A stretch of 64,000 nucleotides of DNA, from the NCBI RefSeq assembly GCF_000026545.1, contig NC_011601.1; one strand, written 5' to 3'. Position numbers: made by a program. Numbering within the stretch: position 1 is the stretch's first letter; each line of letters starts with the position of its first letter. Shown piece by piece: positions 19,701 to 22,700 of the stretch. Source of the DNA: Escherichia coli O127:H6 str. E2348/69 (GTDB taxonomy: Bacteria > Pseudomonadota > Gammaproteobacteria > Enterobacterales > Enterobacteriaceae).

Positions 19701-22700
19701 TCATCCTGCTACAGTCTTCGCTATTTTTACGTCTGCTGGGCGAGAAAGGGGTGAACGCACTTGAACGCCTGATGGGATTAATTCTGGTGATGATGGCAAC
19801 TCAGATGTTCCTCGACGGCATTCGAATGTGGATGAAGGGGTAACGAGGAGAGTTTTTCGAAAAGAGCCCGGTAGCGTCAGAACTACCGGGTAAACAAACT
19901 TAACTCAACAGCTGGAACGCAATCATCCCAACGATGGCACCGACAGTGCCGAGGATGGTTTCCATCATGGTCCAGGTTTTAAGCGTTTCGGCTTCGGTCG
20001 CGCCGGTAAATTTACCGAACAACCAGAAACCCGCGTCGTTAACGTGGCTGACAACAATCGAACCACCGGCGATACAAATCGACAGCGCCGCCATTTGCGC
20101 ACCGGAGTAGTTCAGTTGTTCAATGACCGGCATTACCAATCCCACCGCCGTTAAACAGGCAACGGTGGCAGAACCCTGAATGATGCGCACTGCAGCTGCC
20201 AGCACGAAGCAGGTGATGGCAATCGGCAGGCCCATGCCGGTTAACGCTTCGCCCAGTGCCGGACCGACACCAGAGTCAACCAGCACCTGTTTGAACACGC
20301 CGCCCGCACCAATCACCAGCAGAATGATCCCCGCCGGTTGCAGCGCGTGACCGCAAATCTCCATCACTTTGTCTTTTGGCATACCCTGACGCATTGCCAG
20401 ACCGTAAATCGCCACCAGGCAAGCAACCAGAATCGCGGTAAACGGATGACCAATAAACTCGAACCATTCGTAAGCAGTAGAGCCTTCTGGCACAAAACGC
20501 GCGGCAATGGTTTTCAGCCCCACCAGCACCAGTGGCAACAGGATCAGCGACAGGCTGAATCCGAAGGACGGCATTTTGCCTTCGCCGAGATGCGGTTCGC
20601 TGATGTCGTCAGGAATATGCAACTCCACGTAGCGGCTGATGAAATTACCCCACAGCGGCCCGGCAATAATCATTCCCGGAATTGCCGCGCACAGGCCAAT
20701 CAGGATCATCCAGCCAAAATCGGCATTCATCTGCGATGCCAGCAGCATTGGCGCTGGCCCAGGCACCAGGAACGCAGCCGCTGCCGCCACGCCTGCAAAT
20801 AATGGGATTACCAGCTTCACCAGGTTCGTGCCGGTGTGGCGCGCCATTGAGAAAGCAACGCTAATCAGCAGAACAATCGCCACTTCAAAGAACAGCGGTA
20901 GCGCACAAACCAGCCCCGCAAGGCCGATAGCATAATGCACGCGGCTGTGACCGAAGGATTTGAGCATTTTGACGGCAATCTGATCGACCGCGCCGGTTTC
21001 ATGTAAGATCTTACCAAACATGGCTCCCAGAGCGACAACCACCGCCAGGAAGCCGAGGGTGCCTCCCATCCCTTTTTCCATCGTCGCTGCGATTTTATCG
21101 AGCGGCATACCGGAAAAAAGGCCAGCCCCCATGGACACCACCATTAAAGCCAGGAAAGCGTGCATACGCGCCTTCATGACTAAAAACAGCAGCAGTAAAA
21201 CAGACCCTACTGCTGTTAAAACAAGCGTTAATGTAGTCACTACTTATTTGCCTTTTTTAATAACCTCAATGGTGCTTGCCACAACACCTTCCAGCGGTTG
21301 ATCAATATCCACCACCAGTACATCGGTTTCGTCCGCACCCGGCTCCTGCAGCGTTTCAAACTGCGTCACCAGCATTTGGGTTTTAAAGAAATGGCCTTTG
21401 CGCGCTTTCAGGCGGCTTTCAATCACATCAAAATCGCCTTTCAGGTAGATGAAAGAGAGATTAGGATTACCTTCACGCAGCAAGTCGCGATAGTGTTTTT
21501 TCAGTGCAGAACAGACGATCAGCGATACTTTATTGGTGCGCTGCATAGCAAACGCGGCGTCGTTCAGCGCCTGCAACCACGGTTTGCGATCGTCGTCATT
21601 CAGCGGTTCGCCAGACGCCATTTTTTCGATATTGCAGCGCGGATGGAGGAAATCGCCATCAAGAAACGCGGCATGAAGTTGATGCGCCACTTCACTGGCG
21701 ACCGCAGATTTGCCGCTGCCCGATACGCCCATCAAGACGTAAATGTGGTGATCATGGTTAGTCGTGCTCAAAGTGGTGCCCCCACAATACAAGAATTAAA
21801 AATGTTACGGGTAACTGTTATCGGTAACATTGTCCAGCCGGACAATATCAGAAGCAATATCCATCCGTGCCTTAAGTGTATAAGTGTGAGCTACTTCAAA
21901 TTTGTAGGCTTAAATAGATCCGCCCGGTGACAAGGTGAAACCTAAATCTAACATTTTCGGTGTCACAGATTCGCCACGAATACGCGCCAGCAGGCGCTCA
22001 GCGCCAATGCTGCCCATCCGCTCACGCGGCGTCAGCACACTCGCTAGCCGTGGCTCCATCACCTGACCAATGTCATGACCGTGGAAACCGGCAATCGCCA
22101 TATCGTCAGGAACTTTCAACCCCAGACGCTGACATTCAAACGCCGCGCCGACCGCCAGGTCATCATTAGTACAGAACACGCCATCCAGCTGCGGATATTC
22201 CCGCCGCGCCTGGCGAATCAGTTCAATACCGGAAGAGTAAGAAGAAGATTGCTCAACCATCACGCTATACGGCACCAGGCCTGCATCCAGCATCGCCTGT
22301 TCGTATCCCTTCTGTTTGATGATAGTACGTTCGTCGAGGCGTGCGCCGAGATAGGCAATGTGGCGATGCCCGCGAGCAATAATGGCGGTGGTCATCTGGC
22401 GTGCCGCTTCAAAGTTATCAAAACCGACGGCGATATCGAGGCACGGCGACTTACTGTCCATCAACTCCACCACCGGAATCCCCGCCACTTCAATCATCTT
22501 TAAGGTACGCGGCGTGTGGGTACGTTCGGTGAGGATCAGGCCGTCGATATTCCATGAGAGCATTGATTCGAGGCGTTCTTGCTCCATTTCCGGTTTATAA
22601 CCGTAGTGCGCCAGCATGGTTTGATAACCGTGCGCGTCGGTGACGCTTTCGATTCCGCGTAATACTTCCGCGAAAACCTGGTTGGTGAGAGAAGGTAACA

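What the first reader, a model, noticed from the sequence alone, without database searches (positions are those of the whole stretch)
21244..21792. gntK probably initiates at TTG
The ORF track extends to an upstream alternative start, but the recognisable GntK N-terminus (STTNHDHHIYVLMGVSGSGKS) begins at a TTG codon at 21771. A non-ATG start may limit gntK translation.
Basis: partly seen in the sequence, partly recalled or inferred. Interest (0 to 1): 0.15.

Follow-up and report, generated by a model that had tools for sequence, protein, structure and literature searches.

The report
gntK starts at a TTG codon
The E. coli gluconate kinase gene gntK does begin at a weak TTG start codon, as the reference annotation and a published codon-swap experiment already record, so the finding is correct but ordinary.

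Summary
On the minus strand the mechanical ORF 21792..21244 opens at a TTG. The GntK sequence (M)STTNHDHHIYVLMGVSGSGKS begins seven codons later, at TTG 21771..21769.

Evidence that this TTG is the start:
- It is preceded by a GGGGG Shine-Dalgarno 7 nt upstream. The other in-frame candidates have none.
- RefSeq and the K-12 MG1655 record (b3437) both annotate this 528-nt CDS.
- The NCBIfam gluconokinase equivalog and PDB chain 1KNQ both begin at this codon.
- Across 90 orthologous loci the codon is TTG in 78, ATG in 12 and never GTG.
- Three-base periodicity begins exactly there.
- 36 of 81 Enterobacteriaceae loci have no in-frame start further upstream.

The first base changed about twice on the gene tree, against a median of 17 changes at fourfold sites. 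5359 of 5424 E. coli genomes carry the exact TTG context, and none carries an ATG or GTG version of it.

A 2025 paper states that native gntK has a UUG start and that replacing it with AUG removed residual gluconate. That supports the idea that TTG limits translation, but only indirectly.

Verdict: already known, low interest. A minor addition is that gntU, coupled to the gntK stop, also never uses ATG in Enterobacteriaceae.

The parts
21244..21771 (-). gntK coding sequence as it is most likely translated (175 codons plus TAA stop at 21246..21244)
   Evidence: The 528-nt CDS is identical in extent to the RefSeq gntK in NZ_CP031215 and to K-12 b3437. NF008583 and PDB 1KNQ align from this first codon.
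21769..21771 (-). TTG initiation codon of gntK
   Evidence: Read directly. The homologous codon is TTG in 78 and ATG in 12 of 90 loci, never GTG. The exact 63-nt context occurs in 5359 of 5424 E. coli genomes, with 0 exact matches for ATG or GTG variants. The first base shows 2 parsimony changes against a median of 17 at fourfold sites.
21779..21783 (-). Shine-Dalgarno GGGGG, 7 nt upstream of the TTG
   Evidence: Duplex with the 16S 3' end is -8.4 kcal/mol. Columns -11..-8 are G/A only, and -10 is G in 81 of 81 loci. The surrounding 75 nt folds no better than shuffles (z = +1.37).
21790..21792 (-). Upstream in-frame TTG that opens the mechanical ORF; most likely not used
   Evidence: No Shine-Dalgarno (+0.6 kcal/mol). 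An in-frame TAA lies at 21798..21796. The codon is not conserved, and 36 of 81 loci have no in-frame start upstream of the homologous start.
21730..21732 (-). Downstream in-frame ATG (codon 14), chosen by some gene callers (162-aa versions); not the main start
   Evidence: No Shine-Dalgarno (+1.2 kcal/mol). Codons 2-13 are conserved as amino acids with synonymous third-base changes. The family profile TIGR01313 already starts at residue 11. A 162-aa database version is P0010.
21802..21830 (-). ATGTTACCGATAACAGTTACCCGTAACAT, two tandem palindrome-like GntR operator motifs in the gntK promoter region
   Evidence: Read directly. Conserved upstream of gntK in most of the 80 Enterobacteriaceae loci, at variable distance from the start. 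Assignment as GntR operators rests on my knowledge of the gnt regulon and was not tested here.
21238..21240 (-). GTG start of gntU, 3 nt after the gntK stop (probable translational coupling)
   Evidence: Across 81 Enterobacteriaceae loci the gntU start is GTG in 60 and TTG in 19, never ATG. It overlaps or lies within a few nt of the gntK stop in most (74 of 79 assigned within 6 nt; up to 18 nt in five).

Best explanation
The window carries the gntR-gntK-gntU locus of Escherichia coli. Ribosomes initiate gntK at the UUG at 21771..21769 (minus strand), positioned by a GGGGG Shine-Dalgarno 7 nt upstream in an unstructured leader. The product is the 175-residue thermoresistant gluconokinase. The extra seven codons of the mechanical ORF are untranslated leader.

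UUG pairs less well with initiator tRNA than AUG, so the codon lowers GntK output per mRNA. gntU begins 3 nt after the gntK stop with GUG, so the reduction probably passes on to the transporter through translational coupling.

Shown here: the identity of the gene, the position of the start, and its unusual conservation. Inferred: that the codon limits expression in the native context, and that this is what selection maintains.
For: Position of the start:
- RefSeq and K-12 annotate the 528-nt CDS starting at this TTG.
- NF008583 profile position 1 and PDB 1KNQ residue 1 align to this codon.
- It is the only candidate with a Shine-Dalgarno.
- Codon periodicity begins at this codon, and the upstream columns are non-periodic apart from the G-rich Shine-Dalgarno.
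- 36 of 81 loci have no in-frame start further upstream.
- The homologous codon is ATG in Cronobacter, Siccibacter, Cedecea, Entomohabitans, Tenebrionibacter, Erwinia, Pantoea, Buttiauxella, Yokenella and Trabulsiella.

Conservation:
- Nucleotide diversity at the first base is 0.072, against a median of 0.51 at 47 fourfold sites.
- The first base shows 2 parsimony changes, against a median of 17.
- 5359 of 5424 E. coli genomes are exact for the TTG context, and 0 are exact for ATG or GTG variants.

Effect on expression:
- PMC12523793 names the UUG start of natural gntK and reports that an AUG replacement removed residual gluconate.
- Hecht et al. report that UUG starts about 3% of E. coli genes and that the three canonical start codons as a group give 10-100% of AUG.
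- The paralog idnK uses ATG with an AGGAG Shine-Dalgarno.
Against: - No direct N-terminal or initiation-site measurement of native GntK was retrieved. The Tong 1996 paper is not held, and the supplements searched had no gntK entry or were not held.
- The published codon swap used an overexpression construct and measured residual gluconate, not GntK protein.
- TTG lineages have stronger Shine-Dalgarno pairing than ATG lineages (median -8.4 against -6.1 kcal/mol). That could offset the weaker codon, so net output may not be low.
- The TTG/ATG split rests on only about two evolutionary events. Both the conservation argument and the Shine-Dalgarno comparison therefore have few independent observations behind them.
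- 65 E. coli genomes differ somewhere in the 63-nt probe, and only one was inspected. That one keeps the TTG.
Confidence: 0.9

Rival explanations
1. Translation starts at the upstream TTG (21792), giving a 182-residue GntK with the extension MYCGGTT.
For: It is the first start codon after an in-frame stop, so the mechanical ORF begins there. Some database proteins carry longer N-termini, for example P0002 at 196 aa.
Against: - No Shine-Dalgarno (+0.6 kcal/mol).
- The codon is absent or out of register in most species, and 36 of 81 loci have no upstream in-frame start at all.
- Upstream columns show no codon periodicity and carry indels.
- Family profiles and the solved chain do not cover these residues.
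- It lies only about 10 nt after the operator/promoter block, probably at or near the 5' end of the gntK-promoter transcript. This last point is inference.
Confidence: 0.02
2. Translation starts mainly at the ATG of codon 14 (21732), giving a 162-residue protein, as some automated annotations have it.
For: It is the first ATG in frame. A 162-aa 'gluconokinase [Escherichia coli]' cluster exists in public databases (P0010, 28 members).
Against: - No Shine-Dalgarno (+1.2 kcal/mol).
- Codons 2-13 (STTNHDHH(I/V)YVL) are held at the amino-acid level while third positions vary, so they are translated.
- The family-wide profile TIGR01313 starts at residue 11, so an M14 start would remove the conserved residues just upstream of the Walker A loop.
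- The solved structure chain is the 175-residue form.
Confidence: 0.03
3. The TTG is the true start but has no net limiting role. It is a historical substitution compensated by a stronger Shine-Dalgarno, and it persists because start codons in general evolve slowly.
For: - TTG lineages have stronger Shine-Dalgarno pairing than ATG lineages (median -8.4 against -6.1 kcal/mol; Mann-Whitney p about 9e-5, not corrected for phylogeny).
- Only about 2 changes are inferred on the tree, so a single ancient event explains most of the pattern.
- The leader is unstructured, which favours initiation.
Against: - T-to-A and T-to-G both give working, stronger start codons. Yet the base changed 2 times where fourfold sites changed a median of 17 times, and no E. 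coli genome has an exact ATG or GTG version.
- Replacing UUG with AUG increased gluconate consumption in an engineered strain.
- The coupled gntU start is also never ATG in 81 Enterobacteriaceae loci.
Confidence: 0.25

Closest known systems
E. coli K-12 MG1655 gntK (b3437, NP_417894.2; structure PDB 1KNQ), thermoresistant D-gluconate kinase of the GntI system
   Same: Same gene. The promoter-proximal leader, Shine-Dalgarno and TTG start are identical. The CDS is the same 528 nt, and the same gntR-gntK-gntU order holds with a 3-nt gntK-gntU gap.
   Different: 12 nucleotide differences in the CDS and one amino-acid difference (Cys46 here, Arg46 in K-12). Cys or Ser is the common state among relatives.
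idnK (gntV, b4268), the thermosensitive paralogous gluconokinase of E. coli
   Same: Same GntK/IdnK-type P-loop kinase family. The query matches TIGR01313 above its cutoff. It also matches NF007336, which I take to be the IdnK equivalog, at 182 bits, below that model's 304 cutoff.
   Different: idnK starts with ATG preceded by AGGAG. It has a different operon context (divergent from idnDOTR).
The class of UUG-initiated E. coli genes (about 3% of genes)
   Same: A near-cognate start read by initiator tRNA. [quoted passage not shown] CdsA is another gene whose TTG start has been discussed (PMC11448367 abstract).
   Different: No new kind of start is involved. What is specific here is the conservation of TTG through the core Enterobacteriaceae and the pairing with a non-ATG start in the coupled downstream gene.
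infC (AUU start), the textbook case where a weak start codon is a regulatory device sensed by IF3
   Same: Works-like comparison only: a non-AUG start that lowers initiation and is subject to IF3 discrimination. Hecht et al. list infC and pcnB as AUU starts. The IF3 autoregulation is from general knowledge.
   Different: Nothing here indicates feedback or condition-dependent control of gntK through its start codon. No test was possible.

Membership tests
GntK/IdnK-type gluconokinase (NCBIfam NF008583 equivalog; TIGR01313 subfamily) | Whole-protein score above the curated cutoff of the equivalog model | tested here: met
   NF008583 scores 373.3 bits against a cutoff of 265. TIGR01313 scores 239.7 against 113.75.
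GntK/IdnK-type gluconokinase (NCBIfam NF008583 equivalog; TIGR01313 subfamily) | Walker A P-loop GxxxxGK[ST] near the N-terminus | tested here: met
   GVSGSGKS at residues 15-22 of the 175-aa protein, invariant in all loci.
GntK/IdnK-type gluconokinase (NCBIfam NF008583 equivalog; TIGR01313 subfamily) | Near-identity to the structurally characterised E. coli enzyme | tested here: met
   1KNQ chain aligns 1-175 with a single difference, E = 3.5e-114.
GntK/IdnK-type gluconokinase (NCBIfam NF008583 equivalog; TIGR01313 subfamily) | ATP-dependent phosphorylation of D-gluconate | not testable with these tools
   Enzymatic assay needed. Inferred from identity with the characterised enzyme.
GntI locus gntR-gntK-gntU | Gene order: LacI-type repressor, kinase, GntP-family permease on one strand | tested here: met
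   ORFs at 21910..22905, 21244..21771 and 19900..21240, all on the minus strand. RefSeq gives the names. The same order holds in the outgroup loci.
UUG-initiated bacterial gene | TTG at the 5' edge of the conserved, periodic coding region, alternating only with other start codons in orthologs | tested here: met
   78 TTG and 12 ATG among 90 loci. Periodicity starts at this codon.
UUG-initiated bacterial gene | Shine-Dalgarno at 5-9 nt spacing, absent from rival candidates | tested here: met
   GGGGG lies 7 nt upstream at -8.4 kcal/mol. The rivals score +0.6 and +1.2.
UUG-initiated bacterial gene | Curated reference annotation uses this codon | tested here: met
   K-12 b3437 and PGAP gntK both start at the TTG.
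UUG-initiated bacterial gene | Protein N-terminus or initiating-ribosome footprint mapped to the codon | not testable with these tools
   Searched but not found. I recall, without verification, that N-terminal sequencing of purified GntK (Izu et al. 1996, FEBS Lett) agreed with this start.
UUG-initiated bacterial gene | Lower output than with AUG in the same context | tested here: inconclusive
   Only published, indirect evidence: the UUG-to-AUG swap lowered residual gluconate from 0.42 to below 0.05 g/L in an overexpression strain (PMC12523793). No protein measurement, and not in the native context.

The most novel reading that the evidence does not exclude
The weak start is an actively maintained set-point rather than an accident. 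An ATG-to-TTG change at the base of the core Enterobacteriaceae (Escherichia, Salmonella, Citrobacter, Klebsiella, Enterobacter and relatives) has been held by selection ever since. The translationally coupled gntU uses only GTG or TTG in the same lineages. Together these would cap gluconokinase and low-affinity transporter output per gntKU transcript. Possible reasons are to avoid 6-phosphogluconate overload or to make expression sensitive to IF3 and growth state. Basal lineages (Erwinia, Pantoea, Cronobacter, Cedecea) keep ATG with a weaker Shine-Dalgarno.
Probability: 0.3. Interest if true: 0.3.

Novelty: already known. Interest (0 to 1): 0.1.

Why it matters
For annotation, it confirms that the 175-residue form is the correct model. 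The 182-aa mechanical ORF and the 162-aa or 196-223-aa versions in public protein sets are start-site errors.

For engineering, the TTG is a one-base handle on gluconate flux, and it has already been used that way in a published strain.

Biologically the only fresh point is modest. Both genes of the gntKU operon avoid ATG throughout the core Enterobacteriaceae. That makes gntKU a convenient natural case for testing whether weak start codons are selected as expression limiters.

Tried and rejected
- Primary literature: Tong et al. 1996 (PubMed 8655507 / PMC178079) is not held. Searches for gntK with TTG, initiation codon or N-terminal terms gave no N-terminal sequencing record.
- Initiation-site and N-terminomics data: the INRI-seq and TRAINSPOTTER supplements contain no gntK or b3437 entry. 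Supplements for the retapamulin Ribo-seq preprint and the anti-SD eLife paper are not held.
- Known leader RNA: an Rfam scan of 21000..22000 at E <= 1 found nothing.
- Inhibitory structure as an alternative way of limiting translation: the 75-nt initiation region folds no better than shuffles (z = +1.37). Only a 4-bp GUGG/CCAC stem touches the Shine-Dalgarno, and it is not conserved in other genera.
- Promoter scan: no sigma-70 consensus hit on the minus strand at the tool's thresholds. The suggestion that the -10 is the TAACAT half-site is my inference only.
- Shine-Dalgarno compensation: the raw test is significant, but I do not rely on it because the TTG/ATG contrast reduces to about two events on the tree.
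- Cys46 as a possible lesion: rejected. Cys or Ser is the usual residue, and Arg, as in K-12, is the minority.

Full report
**What is there.** The minus strand of 19900..22905 carries three ORFs in series: a 331-aa LacI-type repressor (21910..22905), the ORF in question (21244..21792) and a 446-aa permease (19900..21240). A 901-nt query over this stretch is 100% identical to many complete E. coli genomes and is present in 5424 of 5426. RefSeq names the genes gntR, gntK and gntU. The window is therefore the E. coli GntI gluconate locus.

**Checking the observation.** The minus strand reads TAA(21798) TTC TTG(21792) TAT TGT GGG GGC ACC ACT TTG(21771) AGC ACG ACT AAC CAT GAT CAC CAC ATT TAC GTC TTG ATG(21732) GGC. 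The stop is TAA at 21246..21244.

**Identity of the protein.**
- The ORF scores 373 bits against the NCBIfam gluconokinase equivalog NF008583 (cutoff 265). Profile position 1 falls on ORF residue 8, the TTG codon.
- The broader TIGR01313 GntK/IdnK profile starts at ORF residue 18, which is GntK residue 11.
- The PDB chain 1KNQ_A, 'Gluconate kinase', 175 residues, aligns end to end with ORF residues 8-182 and differs at one position.

**How public records call the start.** A genome identical to the window (NZ_CP031215) annotates gntK as 528 nt. K-12 MG1655 b3437 is also 528 nt. In both, the first codon is this TTG, and the K-12 leader is identical from the operator block through the start. Gene callers elsewhere disagree. 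The large protein collection holds 162-aa versions beginning MGVSGSGKS (P0010, 28 member sequences) and 196-223-aa versions that are extended or fused.

**Signals around the three in-frame candidates.** Pairing of the 20 nt upstream with the 16S rRNA 3' end gives -8.4 kcal/mol for TTG 21771, from GGGGG at 21783..21779 with 7 nt of spacing. It gives +0.6 for TTG 21792, +0.6 for the TTG at codon 13 and +1.2 for the ATG at codon 14. The 75 nt around the start fold no better than shuffled sequence (z = +1.37). The only recurrent element is a 4-bp stem next to the Shine-Dalgarno, and it is not conserved in other genera. No Rfam family matches the region.

**Comparative evidence.** One scan of species-representative genomes returned 80 Enterobacteriaceae loci with GntK at 90-99% identity.
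- Anchored on the homologous codon, 77 have TTG and 3 have ATG (Buttiauxella, Yokenella, Trabulsiella). None has GTG.
- Nine further loci were taken from more distant orthologs: Cronobacter, Siccibacter, Tenebrionibacter, Cedecea, Entomohabitans, three Erwinia and Pantoea. All have ATG at that codon.
- Including the window, the totals are 78 TTG and 12 ATG.
- Alternation between start codons only, at one fixed position, is what an initiation codon looks like.
- Column statistics agree. From the start codon onward, positions 1 and 2 of each codon are nearly invariant and position 3 varies. Upstream there is no periodicity, only a G/A-rich block at -11..-8 and an invariant C at -2.
- Codons 2-9 keep STTNHDHH through synonymous changes, so they are translated. 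That excludes the ATG at codon 14 as the main start.
- Walking upstream in frame, 36 of 81 loci meet a stop before any ATG, GTG or TTG. The window's upstream TTG has no fixed counterpart.

**Is the TTG itself conserved more than expected?** T-to-A and T-to-G would both leave a working, stronger start codon.
- Among the 81 Enterobacteriaceae sequences, nucleotide diversity at the first base is 0.072. The median at 47 fourfold-degenerate sites with invariant amino acids is 0.51, and only one such site is as conserved.
- On a neighbour-joining gene tree of all 90 sequences, Fitch parsimony needs 2 changes at the first base. The median at fourfold sites is 17, and only 1 of 36 sites has as few.
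- The ATG lineages are mostly the deeper branches, with Yokenella and Trabulsiella as a second event. A single ATG-to-TTG change followed by long retention is the simplest history.
- Within E. coli, an exact 63-nt probe across the start matches 5359 of 5424 genomes. Probes carrying ATG or GTG never match exactly. One of the 65 inexact genomes was inspected. It keeps the TTG and differs only at synonymous sites downstream.

**Does the TTG limit translation?** I could not test this directly.
[quoted passage not shown] It reports that replacing UUG with AUG cut residual gluconate from 0.42 to below 0.05 g/L (PMC12523793). This is a phenotypic readout in an overexpression strain, not a protein measurement.
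- Hecht et al. give UUG as the start of about 3% of E. coli genes. They place AUG, GUG and UUG together at 10-100% of AUG (bioRxiv 10.1101/063800).
- The paralog idnK uses ATG behind an AGGAG Shine-Dalgarno.
- Against a simple reading, TTG lineages have stronger Shine-Dalgarno pairing than ATG lineages (median -8.4 against -6.1 kcal/mol; uncorrected p about 9e-5). This could be partial compensation. With about two independent events behind the contrast, that statistic should be treated as a hint only.

**Coupling to gntU.** gntU starts with GTG at 21240, 3 nt after the gntK stop. In the 81 Enterobacteriaceae loci the gntU start is GTG in 60 and TTG in 19, and never ATG. It overlaps the gntK stop (GTGA, TAGTG) or sits within a few nucleotides of it in most (74 of 79 assigned within 6 nt; up to 18 nt in five). 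Some Erwinia and Pantoea loci use ATG. If gntU translation depends on ribosomes finishing gntK, which is inference from the geometry, the gntK start codon scales both products.

**Comparison with what is known, and verdict.** This is E. coli gntK, and its TTG start is in the reference annotation and stated in the literature. Nothing about the mechanism is new. I recall that N-terminal sequencing of purified GntK (Izu et al. 1996) agreed with this start and that Tong et al. 1996 described a 175-residue product, but neither paper could be opened here, so both count as recollection. The finding is already known and of low interest.

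Noticed in passing
window 21238..21246 (-); loci L003-L082: gntU begins with GTG 3 nt after the gntK TAA. 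Across 81 Enterobacteriaceae loci the gntU start is GTG (60) or TTG (19), never ATG. It overlaps or lies within a few nt of the gntK stop in most (up to 18 nt in five). Some Erwinia and Pantoea orthologs use ATG.
   Followed up: partly
window 21181..21215 (-), inside gntU codons ~9-20: A terminator-like hairpin ACAGCAGTAGGG...TACTGCTGCTGT followed by TTTTTAG lies within the gntU coding sequence for TAVGSVLLLLFLV (-16.4 kcal/mol). The hairpin and U-run are kept in nearly all of 88 orthologs. They are weak only in Salmonella, Kosakonia cowanii and Cronobacter. This looks like an intragenic attenuator after gntK. I recall a published description of attenuation here but could not verify it.
   Followed up: partly
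window 21802..21830 (-): Two tandem GntR-operator-like motifs (ATGTTACCGATAACAG / AGTTACCCGTAACAT) sit 30-60 nt upstream of the gntK start and are conserved in most genera. Their outer half-sites ATGTTA and TAACAT are spaced like -35 and -10 hexamers, so the repressor sites may coincide with the promoter. This is inference; the promoter scan did not call it.
   Followed up: no
L027, L034, L035, L037, L038, L041, L046, L052, L054, L058, L066 (Klebsiella/Raoultella group), 60 nt upstream of gntK: In this clade the operator block is not within 60 nt of the start, and 13 loci (these presumably among them; not cross-tabulated) have a gntR-gntK spacer of about 180-193 nt instead of 120-151. This implies an insertion between operator and Shine-Dalgarno, while the Shine-Dalgarno (GGGAGG) and TTG stay fixed.
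   Followed up: no
window 21634..21636 (-), gntK codon 46: The window encodes Cys46 (TGC) where K-12 and the crystal structure have Arg (CGC). Among 81 relatives the residue is Ser 54, Cys 19, Arg 4, Ala 3, Lys 1, so the K-12 state is the unusual one.
   Followed up: yes
proteins P0010, P0002, P0001, P0088: Public protein sets hold mis-started or fused GntK models. A 162-aa form starts at Met14 and is labelled gluconokinase [Escherichia coli]. A 196-aa form starts far upstream. The one 223-aa form inspected (P0001) runs past the normal stop into gntU sequence; the other 215-225-aa forms were not inspected.
   Followed up: partly
L049 (CACSKA010000004.1): A contig titled 'Chryseobacterium sp. 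18061' carries an enterobacterial gntRKU locus. Its GntK is 92% identical to the query, and the upstream region is identical to that of L024, 'Citrobacter sp. 18056', from the same study. The assembly is probably mislabelled or contaminated.
   Followed up: no
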